Positions 39,620 through 54,600 of a stretch of DNA of 64,000 nt are shown here, one piece after another. Position numbers and translations under genes: made by a program. This DNA comes from Naegleria gruberi (lineage: Eukaryota), in the NCBI GenBank assembly GCA_000004985.1, contig GG738872.1; one strand, 5' to 3'. Positions within the stretch are counted from its first letter, which is position 1. Each line of letters begins with the position of its first letter. The notes under the pieces are model-generated. The model had not been told where the DNA came from, searched no databases, and was given only the letters and a program-made list of their open reading frames with translations.

Positions 39620-39640
39620 TTAATTGACCCCTTAATTTAT

Positions 39641-39980
39641 NNNNNNNNNNNNNNNNNNNNNNNNNNNNNNNNNNNNNNNNNNNNNNNNNNNNNNNNNNNN
39701 NNNNNNNNNNNNNNNNNNNNNNNNNNNNNNNNNNNNNNNNNNNNNNNNNNNNNNNNNNNNNNNNNNNNNNNNNNNNNNNNNNNNNNNNNNNNNNNNNNNN
39801 NNNNNNNNNNNNNNNNNNNNNNNNNNNNNNNNNNNNNNNNNNNNNNNNNNNNNNNNNNNNNNNNNNNNNNNNNNNNNNNNNNNNNNNNNNNNNNNNNNNN
39901 NNNNNNNNNNNNNNNNNNNNNNNNNNNNNNNNNNNNNNNNNNNNNNNNNNNNNNNNNNNNNNNNNNNNNNNNNNNNNNNN
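39641..39980. other. Assembly gap (340 N).
   Basis: A run of n characters. Confidence 0.99.
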
Positions 39981-40546
39981 ATGTACATATGTGATTCACC
40001 TTCATCTTCCTCTTCTATGGTATTATTATTATCATGTTGTTCCGATAATTTAAATGAATTATTACAATTTGATCCTGGTAATGATGAGGTTGCTGATGTT
40101 GGCATATTACTATTAGGTGATTGTAATATTATTATATTATTATTCTTATCATCTTGATGAGGTTGACCAGCTGATGATGGTGATTTAAGAATATTACTTG
40201 ATTGATGAGGAGATTGTTGTTGATAATAATAAGGATGATCATCTAAATGTAAGGGATCCAACAAACCAACTGAACTTCTATTTGAAAAGGAATCTAATAA
40301 TTCCCTATCTGATGATGAACCACCACTTGGAGTTGATACTCTATCTTTATGATAGTGTAAATCTATTGTTGTTGTTGTTGTTGTTGTTGTTGATGATTCC
40401 AACAAGTGTTGACGATTATTGTTGAATTCTGTATAATTTAAACCAACAACCATTTTCTTCTGGAGAACAGTTGTAAATATTTGATTAATGATAATAGAAA
40501 TTGCTCTAAATGTTGCACACAACTGTTGGTTGAGATTAAGCAACAA
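39981..40546 (-). CDS. Possible first exon (low-complexity cytosolic N-terminal tail) of the P4-ATPase gene, running into the gap.
   Basis: This ORF has the same orientation directly upstream of the gap. It is Q/S/T/N-rich with an acidic end (EEEDEGES). There is no conserved motif, so the assignment is tentative. Confidence 0.25.
40366..40392. repeat. (TGT/GTT)n microsatellite, ~9 units (encodes the poly-Thr on the minus strand).
   Basis: Direct reading: tgttgttgttgttgttgttgttgttg. Confidence 0.9.
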
Positions 40547-40994
40547 TGGAATCGAGTACTTTTTTCAAAATAGTTCTAATTATTGGAGGAGCATGTTGAG
40601 GACACACCCAATGATTCAATAGTCTCCGGTCTTATTAGGGTTGAATAATCCTTCATTATCGCTGTAATAATTCTTTCTAAGCAGCATTTGGAAGCGTAAC
40701 CACAATTGTTTCCCTACTATGTTATTGTTCAAAAAACAAGTTCGGTACAGCGGGAATAAATTTTAAAATACCGCGCCCAATAACTCGACAGAAACTGTGT
40801 ATTCTAATAATACTGTTGATGACATAAAATAGTATTGAAGAGAAATTAGATGAAATGATGTTAAAAAACTGTAGATTACCAATGAAATGTAGTGATGGAT
40901 TCTTATGTTGTATTACAATGAAACATCAATGCCCTTCAATTTATTTCTATCGCCCAAAACACATATTTTTGTGTGACCCTCAATGCTTCATCTT

Positions 40995-41143
40995 AATGCC
41001 AGGTTTTGAGATAAAAATTTTAAGGATTAGGAAATTGTGTGCGTTTGTATAGAATCACAAGGCATCAACAAGCAATTGCTAAAAGAAACTCATTTTCGTT
41101 AAATACAATGAACCAACATATCTCAAAACCTGGCATATTTTGA
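40995..41143. mobile_element. Candidate MITE-like element (~150 bp) bounded by 17-bp terminal inverted repeats (tgccaggttttgagat / atctcaaaacctggca).
   Basis: The inverted 16-17-mer pair lies at ~40996-41011 and ~41128-41143. The internal segment is AT-rich and non-coding. Its right two-thirds recur at 46088-46179. Confidence 0.3.
41049..41140 (+). repeat. Dispersed repeat, copy A (~92 bp).
   Basis: It matches 46088..46179 at ~93% identity in the same orientation (atagaatcacaaggcatcaacaagcaattgcta...aatacaatgaaccaac..atctcaaaacctggcatattt). Confidence 0.85.
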
Positions 41144-41769
41144 AATTTTCTGAGAATGAAGGCATATTGAATTAAGTTGCTAAAAAAACTTTTTCAAAGC
41201 CCAAATATGGTTATTCTTCCTCCTTCTTACTATTTTCAAAAATTAACAAGAACCTCTTGGTTCATGTAAATTCAACTTTTCAATTTCTTCAGCGTTTTCA
41301 AAAATGATCATCCTCATCATTATTTACCTGCAATACTTCCACTAAATCAATCTTTGTTGAAACGTGATGTATTGCACTCAATAGATAAGATTGCATGACA
41401 CATTTTCCTTTCAATCACACCAGCAATGACTGGTCCAGTATTCACACCAATTCTAATGTTCACAATGAGTTGATCATTCGAATTCCTTCATATAAATCAA
41501 TAGTTTATCATTCAAAGGATGAGACATTTCATAGAGTTTGTGATACCATAAATATATCTGTTGGATCCAAAACTGTTACATTTTGGAAAATAAATTTTGT
41601 TGAGCATTGTAAAAGTTTCTTGTATTTTCTTGAGTTGAAGAAGTTAAGTAATCGGTCATTACTTCTTCAATACCAAAACAATATTGAACTTTTGCATTGA
41701 ATGTAATTGTAATGTTGAGCTGTTGCAAGTATAATAGAACAGATTCATATCTTAATAAGGAGTAAATTT

Positions 41770-41819
41770 NNNNNNNNNNNNNNNNNNNNNNNNNNNNNNN
41801 NNNNNNNNNNNNNNNNNNN
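41770..41819. other. Assembly gap (50 N).
   Basis: A run of n characters. Confidence 0.99.
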
Positions 41820-41842: not shown

Positions 41843-43687
41843 CTAACCTAATAATTTACATACTTCATATAATAATTCAGCTTTCTTAATAGGCTTAATT
41901 AGAACCTTGTTGATACCTGTGTCAAGTAGAGAATTAATCTCCTCTTTCGCACTGTTTCCAGTTAAAGCTATTATTGTATTATTGGTGTTGTTATCTTTTT
42001 TTCTCTTCTAAGTATTCGTGTTGTTTCTAAACCATTCATGACTGGCATGATGACATCAAGGATGATAAAATCGAATTGAAAGGTCTCACACATTTTTAAA
42101 GCCTCCAATCCATTTTCAGCTTCCTCACAACTACATGATTTAAGAATGTTCTTTACAATATTTCGTATGATTTCATTATCATCAACTACCAAAGCTCGTT
42201 TTCCCACGAGTATTCCCTCTTGATATTTCAAATCTTCTTTTCGGATTTCTTGTTTGTAGGAAGGATGGGTGTATGGTATGGTTATGGTGAAGGTTGACCC
42301 CAATCTCTCAACTGACTCCACCTTAATAGAGTACTTGCATGAGTTTGTGAGAATGTTGAGAAGTACTTGCTGAATTTTGGTAGGATCTGAATACATCATT
42401 TCTGGAACGCTTTCGTCAACACATATTGTTACTTTCAGTTCTTCATGTTCGTATATCTTTACCATTTGGATAAGTTGATAAAGTTTATCTCTGAGGTTGA
42501 AGGTTGATACATTTAGTTTCATAAAGCCAGATTCTAGTTGGGAAATGTCAATTAAGTCATCCAACAGTTGAAGAATGTACTCTGTTGAAAAGTTGGATTG
42601 GATTTCTTAATTCATGGGACATATACGCTATAAATTTAGTTTTTTGTATTAGGTCCTCTTTTGTGGATTCATCGTTTACAGTTATTGCAAGATAAGGATC
42701 ATTTCTAAAAAAGAAACTACTAACAGATATGGAGATGGGAACCAACTCTTTGTTACAATCAAATTAACAAGATGCTTCTAAATATGGTTTACAATGAGTA
42801 TTTAGTCTACTTATTGATAAATCTACACCTGATCTTGTTCTTCTACTATTACAATTGGCGATTGTTTTCACTTTAAACCAAACACCGAGGCAGTGCTTCC
42901 TATCCACTTCAGACCATACAGTATTAGGTATCAAATCACAAATGTGAATTGGATTGGTAGTTATGTTGCCAATGTATGGTGGAAAGGAGACTCCAAACAG
43001 TTCTTTTGCACTCATATTCATTGCTACCACGTGTAATTCCCTGTTAACAACAATAATTCCCTCCTCTAATTCCCTAAATAATGCTAATGACAGTTCGGCT
43101 ATTCACTTTCCCCCAATAGTGGGTTGATTAAGTTATCAAATTGGTTATCACTATTAACAAAATGTGATTCATTTAAGGACTCACTATGCTGAAGCTCGTG
43201 CTCATATAACATGATCAAGTGGGCTAAAGAGTTTCCCAAATATGAGAGGATTGGAACCATCTCCTCATAGTATCCACCCTCCTTGTTAGCAAGTACCAAA
43301 ACACCCACTGTATCATAGCCAAACACGAGAGGTAAGCATAACGCGTTCTCCTTATCAGGATGGACAAGAGGCTTATCGTTTGTCCTAGGAGGCAAACTAT
43401 TGCAAATGATTGTTCTCTTTTCAAGGAATGCTTGAACAAAAAGTGCATGTGAGCCAACGGTTTTGAAAATTAATTTATCTGGAGCTTGAAGTTATCTCAG
43501 AAAAGCTCTTTAATTTTAACATCAAGGAATAGGTACTTGATGTTATCTCAGCTACCTGTTCCGAAAGGTGGCTCATTAAGCACCATTCGCTTACCCTGTT
43601 ATCAGAGTTTTGTAACAGTGTTTTAAAGCCTTGTTTGATGATTTCCATGAACTTGCTCTTCCAACTCTGTAGTGTGAATAAGCTCAT
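41843..43687 (-). pseudogene. Hybrid histidine kinase (GAF - HisKA - truncated HATPase_c - receiver), apparently disrupted: candidate pseudogene.
   Basis: Four consecutive minus-strand ORFs sit in different frames: 43099..43395 (GAF-like), 42764..43030, 42557..42745 (H-box AYMSHELRNP) and 41971..42564 (LIDISQLESG..., N-box LLNILTNSCKYS, receiver DDN...D...MPVMNG). The ATP-binding G1/F/G2 boxes are missing. The receiver domain is frameshifted by an 8-bp tandem duplication (tattattg tattattg at ~41969-41984). It resumes as PIIALTGNSAKEEINSLLDTGINKVLIKPIKKAELLYEVCKLLG, ending at the stop at ~41843-41845. Confidence 0.55.
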
Positions 43688-44226: not shown

Positions 44227-45636
44227 TTAATTTACTTTCCTCACAATAAGAGGCCAACCAACTTGAATGACAACGAACTTGTGGATAGTTTTATCATTAT
44301 TGCCAAGTAATTCTTGTTCTTTTTTGGCATATTGTTTAACCTTAGAACTTGCCTCATTTAAGATACTTTCAACTTTAACATATTTGTTTGCCCATTTTTG
44401 AAAAACTAGCATATTCAATAACTGGCTTTCATCAGCTTGTAATAATTCTTTAAATTTTTCCTTAAACATATAAGGTTTCCAAATTCTAATAGTAGAATAT
44501 TGTGATAAATACATTGGTCTCAAACGTTTCAATTTAATGATAAATATGTCATTGTCGGTTGAAATAACAAGGTCAGCTCTTAATTCAGTATATTCTTTTC
44601 CATTGATATGATAATTTGTATATTCCTTTTCTGCTCTAAAAGTAAAATCTTTGCTTCTATATAAAGAATATGATCTCAATGCAGATTCAATACAAGATTG
44701 TAAACCTCTTTCAGACATATCATTGTCAAACACTGTTTCTTGCTTGCTTAAAATACTCCAAAGTAATTTTTTCAAATTATCTTGAGTTGGTTCATTAATA
44801 AAAGTTGATATATCACTTTCACGTAAAGATATAAGTCTACGTAACTGTTCCAAATATTGAACCTTTGTAATTTCATTTGGAATTAACAATTGTTTTGGAT
44901 TCATTTGTTTTGAGGATGATTCTGTGAAAGTAATCATACCATGATAATACATGAATGATAAAGCATTATCACGAATCTTTGATATATCCTCTTCATTGGA
45001 TGGTGGGTCAATGATCTCTCTTAATTTTAGTGAAGGATAAATAGACTCTGTTACTTCAATATAATCTTTAGACAGTAATTGTTGAATGATATCATTTGAT
45101 ACAACTGATGATGCCAAAGTTGCAAAAACATTCTCACTGATCATTATGTTGGTATCTGTTAATATTGATAATGGAATGTCTTGTTTTTGTAAAACAGCAT
45201 TTCTGAAAGGTTCATCTTTTACAAGTTTGTTCAAAAAGAACATTGAAAGAGTTGTGTTAAATAGAGCATGTTTTGAACCAGGAAAATGATAACCATTATA
45301 ATACTTTTTCATGGTTGAAATGGCAGTATCTTGATCATTTCCAAGAATATCAATATTATTCAATGCCATTCTCAGATCATTTTCTGTAAAACCAACCAAA
45401 CCACCAAATATCTTATCAAAGGAAATATTACTGGAAACATTATATCCAGATGCATCTGCAAGAGCAATAGGAGTGATACCAATGATTAAACTACGAAAAT
45501 CTTGTAAACCAACACCTGAAGACCATTTTAATTGTTCAAAGAAAGAACGAATTGGTGNNNNNNNNNNNNNNNNNNNNNNNNNNNNNNNNNNNNNNNNNNN
45601 NNNNNNNAAAAGGATTACAGTTGGAATAAATGGCAC
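44227..45636 (-). CDS. AAA-ATPase_like (PF09820-type) C-terminal region followed by a PD-(D/E)XK nuclease-like (DUF1703/PDDEXK_9-type) domain. The 5' end is interrupted by the gap.
   Basis: Family signatures are GITPIALADASGYNVSSNISFDKIFGGLVGFTENDL...KKYYNGYHFPGSKHALFNTTLSMFFLNKL, and further downstream ELRADLVISTDNDIFIIKLKRLR (D...E.K). The N-run 45558-45607 falls inside the ORF. A weakly related upstream ORF 45807..46055 (EIIEK...FMYPISNFI) sits in another frame. Confidence 0.5.
   Translation of the reverse strand: MPFIPTVILXXXXXXXXXXXXXXXXXXPIRSFFEQLKWSSGVGLQDFRSLIIGITPIALADASGYNVSSNISFDKIFGGLVGFTENDLRMALNNIDILGNDQDTAISTMKKYYNGYHFPGSKHALFNTTLSMFFLNKLVKDEPFRNAVLQKQDIPLSILTDTNIMISENVFATLASSVVSNDIIQQLLSKDYIEVTESIYPSLKLREIIDPPSNEEDISKIRDNALSFMYYHGMITFTESSSKQMNPKQLLIPNEITKVQYLEQLRRLISLRESDISTFINEPTQDNLKKLLWSILSKQETVFDNDMSERGLQSCIESALRSYSLYRSKDFTFRAEKEYTNYHINGKEYTELRADLVISTDNDIFIIKLKRLRPMYLSQYSTIRIWKPYMFKEKFKELLQADESQLLNMLVFQKWANKYVKVESILNEASSKVKQYAKKEQELLGNNDKTIHKFVVIQVGWPLIVRKVN
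45558..45607. other. Assembly gap (50 N).
   Basis: A run of n characters. Confidence 0.99.
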
Positions 45637-49791: not shown

Positions 49792-50292
49792 TTAGCTCAA
49801 AATTAATTTATTAATAAAACAACATTCTGAAATGTTCAATTCTTGATTGTGGTTGACTTCAAGATAGAAATGTACCAAATCTATTAATACTTTCCAACTC
49901 GATCTTTACATTGATAGTCATTTTCCAAATATTCATTAATTGTATTATCTATCATTCTTCTTATCATCATCCTATTCCCTGCATCAACGTTTAATAATTA
50001 TAATATTATTATTAATATTGGAGCTTAGGAATTGCAAAGATTCTTCCACCATTCCGTTCTCTCAACATCTCTCATCACTCTCACACACAGCAAGGTTGTA
50101 AACAACAAACACGCTAGCCAATGAATCTTTTGCCTTGAGTTGTGTTCCCCAATCACAACGCGTTGTTTGCTGCTGGCAGGCGAAGAGAATAAACAAAGCC
50201 TGACCAACGCACATCTTGTTTGAATCGTTTTCGAAAAAAAAATAACAACAACCCCACTTTCTTACTACCCGTAACAATTTTAAATTTAAAAA

Positions 50293-51516
50293 ATGGTTAA
50301 TAATGATATTACCGTAACTGTAGAAGATGACTACAAGCAAAAGAGCGGAAAGGCTAGATATGAACAAAAAGAAGTTAAGGAATTTGATGATATGAATCTT
50401 AAGGAAGATTTACTCAGAGGAATTTACTCTTATGGTTTTGAAAAGCCATCAATTATCCAACAACGTGCCATCTTGCCAATCACTACTTCTGAACCACCAG
50501 CAGACGTTATTGGTCAAGCCCAATCTGGTACTGGTAAGACTGCTACTTTTACTATTTCATTGCTTCAAAGATTAAATATTTCTCCTGATGTTATCCAACC
50601 ACAAGGACTTGTTTTGGCTCCAACAAGAGAATTGGCTCAACAAATCCACAAGGTCATCATGTCATTGGGTGAATATATGAAGGTTAAAGTACACGCTTGT
50701 GTTGGTGGTACTAAAGTTCAACACGATATTGCCATTCTTGAAGAAGGTGTCCACATTATTGTTGGTACTCCTGGACGTGTTTTCCACATGATTCAAAGTG
50801 GTCACTTGAACGTTAACAGCATTAAGATGTTAGTTATCGATGAAGCCGACGAAATGTTGAGCAGAGGTTTCAAGGATCAAATTTATGCCATCTTTAAGAA
50901 TCTCCCACAAGATATGCAAGTCTGTTTGTTCAGTGCTACTATGCCAACTGAAGTTTTGGAAATTACTGACAAGTTTATGAGAGATCCTATTAGAATTTTG
51001 GTAAAGAAGGAAGAATTGACATTGGAAGGTATTAAACAATTCTACATTTCAGTTGATAGAGAAGACTACAAGTTTGAAACTTTGTGTGATTTGTACAAGG
51101 TTTTGACTATTTCCCAATGTGTCATTTTCTGTAACTCACGTAAAAAGGTCGAACAATTGGCTGAACAACTTAACAAGAAGGACTTTACTGTCTCCTGTAT
51201 GCACGGTGAAATGGATCCAAAGGATCGTGAATTGATTATGCACGAATTCAGAACTAGTGCTTCTCGTGTTTTGATTACTACTGACTTGTTGGCTCGTGGT
51301 ATTGACGTTCACCACGTTTCCTTGGTTATTAACTTTGACTTGCCACGTCACAAGGAAAATTACCTCCACAGAATTGGTAGATCTGGTAGATATGGTCGTA
51401 AGGGTGTTGCCATCAACTTTGTCACCAAAGATGATGTTAGATCCTTGAGAGAAATCGAAAAGTTCTACTCTACTTCTATTGAAGAATGTCCTAACAACAT
51501 TGCCGAATTGATTTAA
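50293..51516 (+). CDS. EIF4A: Eukaryotic translation initiation factor 4A (DEAD-box RNA helicase).
   Basis: Motifs present are [13 protein letters not shown] (motif I), [17 protein letters not shown] (DEAD), SAT, and [19 protein letters not shown] (motif VI). It is a single 407-aa exon with an A-rich Kozak-like context upstream. Confidence 0.9.
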
Positions 51517-51664
51517 TTTTGTAATATCCCTCTATCAAATGGAATTTTCCTTTTGATAATTTTAACCTTTTAATTGAATTTAAATTATCTCCTCTCTCCC
51601 CTCATTATTTACACTCTAGACAATAAACACACAACCCGTTCCAAATTAATTTAATATTTAAATT

Positions 51665-54600
51665 TTATTTCAAAGACGAACTTGATATTTCCGAAACAAT
51701 TTTGAATAAGCTCTCATCCAAAATCCATTCAAGGGTTTGTTGAAATTCTGGACTAGACAAGACTTCTCCCTTGTTTGTTTTTTGTTTGATTGCTGATGTT
51801 GAAAGTGAAGTTGACATTCTTGATGATGCTCTTGAAGATGTACTCGAGTTGGAAGTATTGTTATTGGTCATTTGTAAGGAAGAATTAGCTTTTGAAAGTT
51901 GACTAGAACTTTCTCTTGACTTTTGCATGCTTGACCTCAAACTATATATTCCTGAAGCAGGTCTTGAACTTCTAGGTGTTTCAGCAAATTCACAATAGAA
52001 TAAGCTTGATTCTTCGTCTTGTTGTTTGAGAATTTCTTGTTCAGTTTCAGTGTCGTTTATAATTTCTTGTAGCATGCCAGCCAAAATATCAGTAAAGATA
52101 CCCTTATCTATACTTGATGATACAGAGATATTCTTAGCATTATTCGATCTATTCTCAATTTCATAGTTGTTGTTTGATAATTGTGGAATGTAATGAGTTT
52201 CCCATTGATTTCTTGTTGAAGGACTGTATTTGTAATTTTCCATACTAACAGTTACAGCTTTAACTGAAATCAATAATTTAGTCTTTGTCATTGGTTGCAA
52301 CCCAAATTTGTCATAAGTTGGTGAAGGTGGTCTTTCTAATGCTTTTGGTTTGGCAACTGTCTTTGAAACAGGTAAATATCTTGGAATATTTGTTGAATAA
52401 GCAGCCATTGTTAAATGATTATCACGAGAAATTGTACTCTTACTAATAACAGATTCTCGCTTTGTTGTACTCTTTGAAATTGCTTTTGGAATAATTCTTC
52501 CCTTATTCAATCTATTACTTGAATTTGCAAAATGTTCCTTAATAGATAAAATACTCTTATCACTCATCACATCAGAAACATCATCATCCAAACTCTTAAC
52601 AGTTCTTATCAATGTTTCTTCATACTTTTTCTTTCTTTGGTCCTTTCTTTCCCTTCTACTTATATTTGTAATTTCACAATAAATATCACAATCTAATAAT
52701 TGTGGAACTGCTCCAACATTGAGTGTAACTTTACAAACTTTGAACTCCTGAGGAGCAAGAGTACAAGTTTTAGGTTCAATTACCATTACCGAACTTAATT
52801 GTTGATCATCTAATGGTATTGTTGAATTCCAATCAAATGTAATTGAATCTTGAGAAAGATTTGTAACTGTTATCAATCTTCTATTTACAGATAAACATGG
52901 ACATGTTTCAAAATCTAAAACTTCTGATGAAAAATGGACTATTTGATTTGGTGTTTGTACTTGTTGAATTGGTTGTAAAGATGTTGGTAAATAGTTTACA
53001 ATAATATCTTCTGATGGTTCTTCCTCTTCTTCTTCTTCAATACTTAAAGGAGTGTTAGACCTTCCATCAACACCTTTTCCTTTTAGAGTCATGTTATAAA
53101 CTAAATCAGATCCAATCATGTGAATTTGCATATTCAATTCATATGTTTTAACTTCAATAGGTTTAAAAACAAATCTTAGATAAATAAAATGATTAGCAGG
53201 AACAATACTCTTCTTGTTTTCCAAAGTTAAAACATCAAAATCATAATTTTCAACTGATAATTGCTTAAATGGAAATTCATCAATATTAATTTCAATATCT
53301 TGATCTGTTGGATTGGCAACTTTAACATATTGTATTGGATGATCTTCAGCTCCAATTTCTTGTTCTTCAAATTCATGTTCCATTGAAGCAAATTGCAAAT
53401 GTTGTTGATTTCGGGCAAGTGTTTGACCAGTCATATGAAGTGTAAAACATCTTCCATTTCTAACTTGTACTAAAACAGGTAATTCATGAATCTCTGCAAT
53501 CTTATGTCTATAAATAAAGGCAATGAGAGCCTTTTCGCCTGGTTCGAGTGTTCCCTTATTAGGTTGAATTTCAAAGAGTTTGTTTACGTATATACTGAGG
53601 GCTTTCAACTCTTCATCTGTTCTTGCCACTTGATCGTGAGCCCATTTTTCAACATTAACGATAGTATCAAATGTAGTGGTGAGTGAGAATTGTGCTTTCA
53701 CTTTACCAATATTTTCTAAAGTAACAAATACAACTGAATCATCTGAATCAATTGGTCTTGAACCAAAATCACAATAGAATCTATTCAATTCTTGAATTGA
53801 AGTGTTAAAGTTTGTAATATTTGATTCAACATCTTCAGAATTACTGATCTTTCTCAATTCGTTATTAATTGCATTGATGGAAAATTGATGCCACATATCA
53901 GATTTTGAATATATTTCACTCTTTACATCTGTTATGCCTATTTGGGGATATGCACCAATACCAATCATTTCACATTTTGGTAAATCAATCATTTGTTCCA
54001 TTGTTGTTAATTCCTGACTCAACCTACAATAAACAATAAATTTATCCACTCTTCTATTATGAGGACAATAGGTAATTCTTATTTGTTTGTGGGATCTAGC
54101 AGGAACCTTGCCTTTGGGAGATTCAATATTTAAAGAAGTATCTGATAAGGCTTCTGTCTCTTCTTGTTCTGATTCTTCATTAACAATGAGTTCATAAGGC
54201 AAATCACATTCACTAGAATTGAAAAGTGTAATAATTTTAACACATTGATCATCAACTAGTACATTTCCAAAATCGATATTTGCTGGTTCCATAGTGATTC
54301 CAGCACTTGTACCTTCTCCTAATAGTGTTAAGAAAACTCTAGATCTTACAGGTTCCTTATTAACTTCAGCAACACTAGATATTATACATGGAACTTTGAT
54401 TGTAAAACCCTTTTCATCTGGAGGACAGAATGTCCATGTTATTTTCTGAGTTTCATTTCCATTCAATACTCCTGTTTTCTTACTTACTACAAATGTTGAA
54501 ACAAATTCTTTTGGAACATCCCATTCATATGATATTGGAATTCTTGAAGGATTGAAAATAGTAATTTCTTTGGTGGAGGTGGTTCCGATATGGGTTGGTT

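What the first reader, a model, noticed from the sequence alone, without database searches (positions are those of the whole stretch)
41843..43687. Hybrid histidine kinase carrying an 8-bp tandem duplication, a missing ATP-binding core and multiple frame breaks (pseudogene or mis-assembly)
On the minus strand, GAF, HisKA H-box, N-box and receiver modules all occur in the right order but in four different frames. The receiver reads PIIQ* and resumes as PIIALTGNSAKEE... once one copy of the 8-bp unit tattattg (plus 41969-41984) is removed. The G1/F/G2 boxes are absent between LLNILTNSCKYS and GSTFTITIP. Near 42590 a 5-nt repeat (ATCCA ATCCA on the minus strand) coincides with another frame change between the H-box and its dimerisation helix. 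Together this argues for a decaying sensor kinase rather than missed introns. Other genes here have 0-4 short introns and long exons.
Basis: seen in the sequence. Interest (0 to 1): 0.5.

Follow-up and report, generated by a model that had tools for sequence, protein, structure and literature searches.

The report
Decayed histidine kinase gene, Naegleria gruberi
This stretch of the Naegleria gruberi reference genome is the wreck of a GAF-PAS hybrid histidine-kinase gene, broken by four deletions, a stop codon and an 8-base duplication; it is an ordinary pseudogene, of modest interest as a gene loss caught in progress.

Summary
The window is Naegleria gruberi NEG-M (three ORFs match GenBank proteins exactly). 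On the minus strand, 43687-41843 holds the full-length remains of an intronless GAF-PAS-HisKA-HATPase-receiver kinase. It belongs to a family found only in heteroloboseans; the nearest relative is N. lovaniensis C9374_009980 at 51% identity.

I find six lesions:
- a net 71-nt deletion in the GAF domain
- a 10-nt deletion before the PAS domain
- an in-frame TAA in the PAS domain
- a deletion of about 71 nt just after the H-box
- an in-frame 219-nt deletion that removes G1, F and G2
- the 8-bp tandem duplication in the receiver, exactly as reported

An environmental contig about 99% identical to the window still carries both N-terminal segments in frame, so those two deletions are derived and recent. 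The missing pieces are nowhere else in the window, and no GT-AG intron can restore them.

Verdict: a real, non-processed pseudogene, confidence about 0.8. I could not check reads, so a cloning or assembly artefact, or a second intact allele in the strain, is not excluded. This is an ordinary finding of low interest.

The parts
41843..43687 (-). Whole relic of a GAF-PAS hybrid histidine kinase gene, from ATG 43687-43685 to TAG 41845-41843. It is 1845 nt; the intact form is inferred to be about 2.2 kb.
   Evidence: Both ends align with the start and end of N. lovaniensis P0002. Coordinates.
43496..43687 (-). Block A: N-terminus and first part of the GAF domain (MSLFTLQSW...LKLKSFSE).
   Evidence: Identical in the environmental protein P0001 and homologous to P0002 residues 8-72.
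43492..43495 (-). Lesion 1: deletion scar ATAA. 72 nt of the ancestral sequence, encoding TDQPLLEVIGLSGLPHIKESLEKVQ, are replaced by one T. The net loss is 71 nt, a frameshift, and translation stops at 43477-43475 after 70 codons.
   Evidence: Alignment with environmental contig L001. The lost segment contains the L..IGL.GL motif conserved in all relatives.
43102..43491 (-). Block B: second half of the GAF domain and the linker (LQAPDKLIFKTVGSHALF...NPLLGESE).
   Evidence: Pfam GAF_2 positions 54-135 of 136, E 5e-10. 49% identical to P0002 residues 113-232.
43100..43101 (-). Lesion 2: 10-nt deletion (TGTTTAAGTC). It removes L-F-K-S from the conserved E-L-[LF]-K-S-A-E-L-S motif and shifts the frame.
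   Evidence: Alignment with L001; motif conservation.
42593..43099 (-). Block C: PAS domain and H-box (AELSLALF...FIAYMSHELRNPIQ). The phospho-acceptor His codon CAT is at 42616-42614.
   Evidence: Weak Pfam PAS hits; HisKA positions 1-17 of 66, E 6e-5. 41% identical to P0002 residues 260-421.
42764..42766 (-). Lesion 3: in-frame TAA inside the PAS insertion loop. Most likely a nonsense substitution, for example AAA to TAA.
   Evidence: In the family alignment the stop column falls within residue-bearing loop sequence of four relatives, at K of the FKYE/LKYE motif in the N. lovaniensis and N. fowleri long-type proteins. The loop is as long as that of the intronless N. lovaniensis gene. An 81-nt or 63-nt GT..AG reading is possible but would remove homologous sequence.
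42592..42592 (-). Lesion 4: deletion scar (a single C) directly after NPIQ. About 24 codons are missing (the rest of DHp helix 1 and the loop, VIISGIHALIDSANCEDTSVIASL in N. lovaniensis). The loss is 3n+2 nt, a frameshift.
   Evidence: tblastn and family alignment. Size is inferred from the N. lovaniensis protein; no ancestral DNA was available.
41977..42591 (-). Block D: DHp helix 2, N-box (LLNILTNSCKYS), the tail of HATPase_c (IKVESVERLGSTFTITIPY) and the first three quarters of the receiver. The receiver Asp codon GAT is at 42057-42055.
   Evidence: Pfam Response_reg positions 2-74, E 1e-16, and HATPase_c positions 2-30 only. 52% and 47% identical to P0002.
42327..42328 (-). Lesion 5: junction of an in-frame 219-nt (73-codon) deletion that removes the G1 (DTGVGI), F and G2 (GSGIGLALSKLL) boxes.
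   Evidence: Family alignment: P0002 residues 534-606 have no counterpart. tblastn finds the core nowhere else in the window (all E >= 0.17).
41969..41984 (-). Lesion 6: 8-bp tandem duplication CAATAATA x2 (plus strand TATTATTG x2). It gives PIIQ-stop-stop instead of PIIALTGNS.
   Evidence: Removing one copy restores the frame and the conserved TPIIALTGNS.
41843..41968 (-). Block E: last quarter of the receiver (ALTGNSAKEE...LIKPIKKAELLYEVCKLLG) and the TAG stop.
   Evidence: Pfam Response_reg positions 73-108. 52% identical to P0002 residues 722-763.

Best explanation
The locus is a non-processed pseudogene in the Naegleria gruberi NEG-M reference genome. It is the in-place remains of an intronless, soluble hybrid histidine kinase with the order GAF, PAS, HisKA/DHp, HATPase_c, receiver.

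Inferred from how the family works, not shown here: the ancestral protein sensed a signal through GAF/PAS, autophosphorylated the His of SHELRNP, and passed the phosphate to the Asp of FIILDVIMP for relay to an HPt protein.

Shown here: in NEG-M the gene cannot do this. The first frameshift ends translation after 70 codons. The DHp helix-1/loop and the ATP-binding G1/F/G2 core are physically absent, and the receiver is frame-shifted.

Inferred: the lesions are ordinary neutral mutations (end-joining or slippage deletions, one slippage duplication, one nonsense change). They accumulated after selection on this copy was lost. At least the two N-terminal deletions arose very recently, because a wild relative about 0.3-0.5% diverged still has both segments.
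For: Identity of the organism:
- Three window ORFs are identical to N. gruberi proteins EFC43743.1, EFC43668.1 and EFC43751.1, on a 413,107-bp scaffold.

Homology:
- The conceptual protein hits N. lovaniensis C9374_009980 (E 5e-128) and Willaertia magna ABK040_003489 (E 2e-115).
- A search with P0002 shows a family of named members that are all heterolobosean, with a long-type paralogue in N. lovaniensis, N. fowleri and N. gruberi.
- In the alignment every intact member has all four segments that the window lacks.

Lesions:
- They are mapped to the base.
- Environmental contig L001 is 97.7-98.2% identical over its two aligned stretches. Within the kinase region only 2-3 bases differ in about 850 nt. 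It carries the 72-nt and 10-nt segments in frame, with conserved residues.

Not introns and not scrambled:
- The N. lovaniensis gene is one exon.
- Every GT..AG rescue would delete conserved residues.
- The missing segments are absent from the rest of the window.

Gene-specific decay rather than poor sequence:
- The adjacent ORF on the same contig is open for 1.33 kb and has no indel against L001 over the shared 822 nt. eIF4A has no coding indel against L012.
- Indel density in the kinase (2 in about 850 nt against L001) is like that in the non-coding DNA compared between the same two strains: 2 indels in about 540 nt of intergenic DNA, plus one 7-nt gap in L012 whose position I did not map.
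- No N. gruberi protein model for this locus appeared in either database search.
Against: - No reads, traces or RNA data could be examined, so none of the six lesions is confirmed independently in NEG-M itself.
- The relic lies on a small 3.7-kb contig between two 50-N gaps (41770-41819 and 45558-45607). That could mean low or odd clone coverage.
- Five indels against very few substitutions is a high ratio.
- The environmental contig ends, chimerically, at window position 42838. Lesions 3 to 6 are therefore judged only against proteins 40-51% identical, and their exact sizes and ages are inferred.
- Grouping with the N. lovaniensis short type has only 49% bootstrap support, and there is no synteny.
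Confidence: 0.8

Rival explanations
1. Heterozygous null: the broken copy is real, but NEG-M (a heterozygous diploid) also carries an intact allele like the environmental one. That allele was left out of the haploid consensus, and the large indel heterozygosity caused the flanking assembly gaps. This can be true alongside the best explanation.
For: Naegleria is described as mainly a heterozygous diploid (PMC9928731, read). An intact N-terminal allele exists in nature at about 99% identity. The contig is bounded by gaps. A small 6.8-kb scaffold carrying a partial copy of eIF4A, a gene also in this window, exists in the assembly.
Against: No second N. gruberi protein of the short type appears in either database search, so no alternative scaffold with an annotated intact copy exists. 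Allele fractions could not be tested.
Confidence: 0.2
2. Artefact: some or all of the lesions arose during cloning in E. coli or during assembly of a low-coverage contig, and the real NEG-M gene is intact.
For: The relic sits on a 3.7-kb contig between two gaps. The indel-to-substitution ratio is unusually high. No independent NEG-M data were available.
Against: Six independent events in 1.8 kb would be needed, while the adjoining 1.33-kb ORF on the same contig and the long ORFs of the window (up to 3209 aa) are clean. The ancestral sequence at the two resolvable deletions has no flanking direct repeats, so repeat collapse is ruled out. Deletions of 10 to 219 nt are not base-calling errors. 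Natural indels of 22, 2 and 7 nt also separate the two strains in non-coding DNA.
Confidence: 0.1
3. Still functional: the blocks are joined by unusual splicing, programmed frameshifting or editing into a working or regulatory protein.
For: Frame-compatible GT..AG pairs exist at each break. The H-box His and the receiver Asp codons survive.
Against: Every such pair removes conserved residues, in one case the H-box itself. The ATP-binding core and half of the DHp are absent from the DNA. The orthologue has no intron. The environmental allele shows the breaks to be simple deletions.
Confidence: 0.02

Closest known systems
Naegleria lovaniensis hypothetical protein C9374_009980 (P0002, 764 aa; UniRef name 'histidine kinase')
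   Same: Same domain order (GAF_2, PAS-like, HisKA, HATPase_c, receiver). Same short N-terminus and the same start and end. No transmembrane or N-terminal extension. Best hit, at 51% identity over 466 shared columns.
   Different: It is an intact single exon of 2295 nt. The window copy lacks 25 + 4 + about 24 + 73 codons and has a stop codon and an 8-bp duplication. The genomic neighbourhood is different. The sister grouping has only 49% bootstrap support.
Environmental allele: ENA metagenome contig ERZ929261 k127_225054 (L001; protein P0001)
   Same: About 98-99% identical in DNA across 45048-42838, including the upstream neighbour gene and the intergenic region. It is the same gene in a very close strain.
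   Different: It keeps the 72-nt and 10-nt segments, so the first 322 codons are open. It also differs by 22-nt and 2-nt indels upstream of the start codon. Its 3' end is chimeric, so the state of its kinase core and receiver is unknown.
Long-type heterolobosean paralogues: N. lovaniensis C9374_012450 (P0132), N. fowleri P0133, N. gruberi P0134 (same 413-kb scaffold, outside the window), Willaertia magna ABK040_003489 (P0003)
   Same: Same family and the same motifs: SEWTLMNQ, ELLKSAELSLALF, SSFFF, FLSHELRNPIQ, NSCKYT, GSGIGLALSKLL, TPIIALTGNS.
   Different: 40-47% identical to the relic. They have long low-complexity N-terminal and inter-domain inserts and are 972-1126 aa long. P0134 may be the single GAF-containing kinase among the 24 counted in NEG-M (PMC6324907), but I did not check that.
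Bacterial and eukaryotic hybrid sensor histidine kinases in general (Pfam HisKA PF00512 + HATPase_c PF02518 + Response_reg PF00072)
   Same: H-box SHELRNP, N-box, and a receiver with the DD...D...K pattern. Bacterial hits are 25-35% identical in the core.
   Different: The relic fails the catalytic requirements: no G1/F/G2, a truncated DHp and no continuous ORF.

Membership tests
Functional hybrid histidine kinase (HisKA + HATPase_c + receiver) | HisKA/DHp four-helix-bundle domain with the H-box histidine | tested here: not met
   The H-box SHELRNPIQ is present (His codon 42616-42614), but only HisKA profile positions 1-17 of 66 match. About 24 residues of helix 1 and the loop are deleted and the frame shifts at 42592.
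Functional hybrid histidine kinase (HisKA + HATPase_c + receiver) | HATPase_c ATP-binding fold with N, G1, F and G2 boxes | tested here: not met
   Only the N-box region matches (profile positions 2-30 of 111, 18.7 bits, below the 26.4 cutoff). 73 residues including DTGVGI and GSGIGL are missing and lie nowhere else in the window.
Functional hybrid histidine kinase (HisKA + HATPase_c + receiver) | Receiver domain with the phospho-acceptor Asp and conserved Lys in one frame | tested here: not met
   Both halves are recognisable (Response_reg positions 2-74 and 73-108), with Asp (GAT 42057-42055) and KP present. The 8-bp duplication separates them by a frameshift and two stop codons.
Functional hybrid histidine kinase (HisKA + HATPase_c + receiver) | One continuous open reading frame, or exons joined by plausible introns | tested here: not met
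   There are five blocks in two alternating frames plus an in-frame TAA. No GT..AG pair joins the blocks without deleting conserved sequence.
Heterolobosean GAF-PAS hybrid kinase family (by descent) | Significant full-length, collinear homology to the family and its signature motifs | tested here: met
   E 5e-128 and 2e-115 to the N. lovaniensis and Willaertia proteins. All blocks are collinear. The family forms one clade apart from the two bacterial kinases used as outgroup in 100% of bootstraps.
Non-processed (in situ) pseudogene | Homology to a functional gene plus disabling lesions | tested here: met
   Six lesions. Two are polarised by the environmental allele and by the relatives; the other four by the relatives only.
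Non-processed (in situ) pseudogene | Not a retrocopy: native flanks and position retained, no poly(A) tail | tested here: met
   The same upstream gene and intergenic region flank the intact environmental allele. The parental gene type has no introns, so intron absence says nothing. No poly(A) tract follows the stop codon.
Non-processed (in situ) pseudogene | The lesions are present in the organism's DNA, not only in the assembly | not testable with these tools
   No NEG-M reads or second assembly were available. Exact look-ups of the fragment ORFs and a metagenome scan found nothing.
Unitary pseudogene (no functional copy of the same type left in the genome) | No intact short-type copy in N. 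gruberi | tested here: inconclusive
   Only the long-type P0134 was found for N. gruberi. That search sees only annotated proteins, and an unassembled second allele is possible.

The most novel reading that the evidence does not exclude
The short-type GAF-PAS kinase may be in the middle of being lost from the genus: intact in N. lovaniensis, not found among N. fowleri proteins, open at least through its first 322 codons in a wild N. gruberi-like strain, and riddled with deletions in NEG-M. If the six lesions all post-date the roughly 0.3-0.5% split from the wild strain, NEG-M shows an indel-dominated, deletion-biased mutation spectrum, or a clustered error-prone repair event. That would make the locus a natural presence/absence polymorphism for a two-component sensor, and a marker that distinguishes laboratory from wild lineages.
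Probability: 0.25. Interest if true: 0.3.

Novelty: new member of a known kind. Interest (0 to 1): 0.15.

Why it matters
Mostly housekeeping.
- It explains why this 1.8-kb stretch of the N. gruberi reference yielded no matching N. gruberi protein in either database search.
- It adds one dead member to the 24 histidine kinases counted in NEG-M (PMC6324907).
- It warns that the reference strain's sensor repertoire may be smaller than that of wild relatives.
- It gives a small, datable example of how a two-component sensor is lost in a free-living eukaryote, and of an indel-rich neutral mutation pattern in Naegleria.

It does not reveal a new mechanism or open a long-standing question.

Tried and rejected
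1. Introns. By eye, a 58-nt GT..AG (43536-43479) and an 81-nt GT..AG (42828-42748) seemed to repair breaks 1 and 3. I rejected the first because the environmental allele and the relatives show that the 'intron' is conserved coding sequence (SSTYSLMLK) and that the break is a deletion. The second is unlikely for the same kind of reason.
2. The 5-nt repeat as a slippage lesion. Rejected: it encodes the conserved NPIQ and occurs at chance frequency.
3. Scrambled or displaced exons. tblastn of the missing segments against the whole window found nothing.
4. Independent confirmation of the broken ORFs. Exact look-up of 10 fragment-ORF variants found none in the collection.
5. More alleles or orthologues in JGI metagenomes. 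Only bacterial receiver domains at 27-32% identity came back.
6. Synteny with the N. lovaniensis locus. None found.
7. DNA of the N. gruberi paralogue P0134. Not on record.
8. Locus annotation through the eIF4A look-up. It returned only another contig from the same environmental sample.
9. The nature of sample PRJEB11402. No paper found.
10. An antisense-intron explanation for deletion 1. The lost 72 nt begin CT and end AC, which reads GT..AG on the other strand. I did not adopt it, because one extra base remains at the junction and the other deletions do not fit.

Full report
**Source of the window.** The window is eukaryotic, 31% G+C, with scaffold gaps at 39641-39980, 41770-41819 and 45558-45607. 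Three complete ORFs are identical, residue for residue, to Naegleria gruberi proteins EFC43743.1, EFC43668.1 (eIF4A) and EFC43751.1, all on a 413,107-bp scaffold. So this is the JGI reference assembly of N. gruberi, whose sequenced strain is NEG-M.

**Check of the observation.** A three-frame translation of the minus strand and a Pfam scan confirm the ordered fragments:
- GAF_2, E 5e-10
- PAS folds, weak
- HisKA, positions 1-17 of 66 only
- HATPase_c, positions 2-30 of 111 only (the N-box)
- Response_reg in two pieces, positions 2-74 and 73-108

The 8-bp tandem duplication is exactly at 41969-41984. Deleting one copy restores TTPIIALTGNS, which matches TPIIALTGNS in every intact relative.

Two details of the finding are wrong. 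First, only two of the three frames alternate, over five blocks. Second, the ATCCAATCCA 'repeat' is simply the codons for the conserved N-P-I-Q. 5-nt tandem repeats occur at chance level here (85 observed, 82 expected), whereas 8-nt ones are enriched (6 observed, 1.6 expected).

**Relatives.** The conceptual protein finds three strong hits:
- P0001, an ENA metagenome protein nearly identical over the N-terminal half
- N. lovaniensis C9374_009980 (P0002, 764 aa, E 5e-128)
- Willaertia magna ABK040_003489 (P0003, 972 aa)

Searching with P0002 adds a long-type paralogue in N. lovaniensis (P0132), N. fowleri (P0133) and N. gruberi (P0134). P0134 is on the same scaffold but not in the window. The next best hits are bacterial kinases, all with scores of 213 bits or less.

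The heterolobosean proteins group together, apart from the two bacterial kinases used as outgroup, in 100% of bootstraps. The relic is closest to the short-type P0002 (51% identity), with weak support (49%). The N. lovaniensis gene is a single exon of 2295 nt. Its neighbours are unrelated to those in the window. No short-type N. fowleri or second N. gruberi protein was returned.

**The lesions** (coordinates):
- Lesion 1, 43495-43492. Contig L001, which encodes P0001, aligns to window 45048-42838 at 97.7-98.2% identity. It shows that 72 nt have been replaced by a single T. Those 72 nt encode TDQPLLEVIGLSGLPHIKESLEKVQ, which contains the family-wide L..IGL.GL motif. Translation now stops after 70 codons.
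- Lesion 2, 43101/43100. Again against L001, 10 nt (TGTTTAAGTC) are gone, removing LFKS from the conserved ELLKSAELS motif. Neither deletion is flanked by direct repeats in L001.
- Lesion 3, 42766-42764. An in-frame TAA lies in the PAS insertion loop. The column aligns within coding residues of the relatives, at a K in two of the long-type paralogues, and the loop length matches that of the intronless N. lovaniensis gene. A nonsense change is therefore more likely than a small intron.
- Lesion 4, 42592. Directly after NPIQ a lone C is followed by FSTEYILQLL. About 24 codons of DHp helix 1 and its loop are missing, and the frame shifts.
- Lesion 5, 42328/42327. NSCKYS runs straight into IKVESVERLGSTF. 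P0002 residues 534-606, which hold G1, F and G2, have no counterpart. This is an in-frame loss of 219 nt.
- Lesion 6. The 8-bp duplication described above.

Adding back the inferred losses gives about 2.2 kb, close to the 2295 nt of the N. lovaniensis gene.

**Introns, recoding and scrambling.** The breaks are gaps in the DNA, not insertions, so splicing cannot repair them. An enumeration of frame-compatible GT..AG pairs shows that every candidate removes conserved residues. Across lesion 4, the candidates nearest the break remove the H-box itself, and the rest remove conserved PAS sequence. tblastn of the missing segments against all 64 kb gives nothing better than E = 0.17.

**Real or artefact?** I could not look at reads. 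Several points argue against an artefact:
- The neighbouring ORF on the same gap-bounded contig is open for 1.33 kb. Over the 822 nt it shares with L001 it has only substitutions.
- The window holds uninterrupted ORFs of up to 3209 codons.
- The two resolvable deletions are not repeat collapses.
- The same environmental sample yields an eIF4A contig (L012) that is 99.3% identical, with one 7-nt gap whose position I did not map.
- Between the two strains, indels in intergenic DNA (22 nt and 2 nt in about 540 nt) are about as dense as in the kinase (2 in about 850 nt), and the compared coding regions have none. That is the pattern expected if the kinase is evolving neutrally in NEG-M.

Points in favour of caution:
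- The relic sits between two gaps.
- The indel-to-substitution ratio is high. Only 2-3 base differences accompany the two deletions in the first 850 nt.
- L001 ends in a chimeric tail at window position 42838, so lesions 3 to 6 are polarised only by proteins 40-51% identical.
- Naegleria is regarded as a heterozygous diploid (PMC9928731), so an intact second allele in NEG-M is possible.

**Mechanism.** By family analogy, the ancestral protein was a soluble sensor. GAF/PAS input would control autophosphorylation of the H-box histidine and transfer of the phosphate to the receiver aspartate. In NEG-M the copy is dead several times over. The most economical account is loss of constraint followed by ordinary neutral mutations: end-joining or slippage deletions, one slippage duplication and one nonsense substitution. 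Loss of constraint is plausible because a long-type paralogue exists in the same genome and because no short-type N. fowleri protein was found. At least the two N-terminal deletions arose after the split from a wild strain that is only about 0.3-0.5% diverged.

**Comparison with what is known.** A survey of eukaryotic kinases counted 24 histidine kinases in NEG-M, one with a GAF domain and one with a PAS domain (PMC6324907). Neither database search returned an N. gruberi protein model for this locus. It is a new, unannotated example of a familiar thing: a non-processed pseudogene of a two-component sensor.

**Verdict.** Novelty is low and interest is 0.15.

Noticed in passing
window 41347-41480 (-), and more loosely 40550-41769: A relic of a class III adenylate/guanylate cyclase catalytic domain (RIGVNTGPVIAGVIERKM...; Pfam Guanylate_cyc positions 88-122 of 183, E 3e-5) lies just downstream of the kinase, beyond the gap. 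Neighbouring cyclase-like pieces are in other frames and there is no long ORF. The roughly 3-kb stretch 40.5-43.7 kb may therefore hold two decayed signalling genes.
   Followed up: partly
L001 1575-1646 (the segment missing at window 43495-43492): The 72 nt lost in lesion 1 begin CT and end AC on the gene strand, which reads GT...AG on the opposite strand, like an antisense intron removed through a cDNA. One extra base at the junction and the other deletions do not fit, so this is probably chance (roughly 1 in 100).
   Followed up: partly
L001 2307-2416: The environmental contig leaves the kinase at window position 42838. It continues with 89 nt that are about 89% identical to part of the upstream neighbour gene (window 44994-44906), and then with a 21-nt inverted copy of its own positions 1757-1777. 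This is either an assembly chimera or a real rearrangement that truncates the wild allele.
   Followed up: partly
window 44227-45636 (-): The upstream neighbour is an open ORF of at least 442 codons with no Pfam match, interrupted only by the 50-N gap. A diverged second copy seems to exist in the environmental strain (the L001 tail), so it may belong to a multi-copy family.
   Followed up: partly
P0134 (N. gruberi long-type paralogue, same scaffold, outside the window): The annotated protein ends abruptly after the G2 box (...GSGIGLALSKLLSRATVARSEETFPRNTNRGIIKR) and has no receiver, unlike its N. lovaniensis and N. fowleri counterparts. This is either a gene-model error or a second damaged family member in NEG-M. 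Its DNA could not be fetched.
   Followed up: partly
window-wide; 191, 4038, 29379, 40126, 41969, 57151: Exact 8-nt tandem duplications occur six times, against about 1.6 expected from a first-order Markov model. This suggests that short slippage duplications are a regular mutation type in this genome.
   Followed up: no
window 44085 region and 43706 region compared with L001; L012 compared with window 50053-51876: The NEG-M and environmental haplotypes differ by 22-nt and 2-nt indels in intergenic and 5' leader DNA, and by a 7-nt gap in the eIF4A contig L012. The 2-nt difference puts an upstream ATG (MEYFQKK...) in frame in the environmental allele only.
   Followed up: partly
window 39632-40546 (-): A low-complexity ORF (a run of nine Thr, Ser/Asn/Gln-rich) runs into the 340-N gap. 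It has no Pfam match and its status as a gene is unclear.
   Followed up: no
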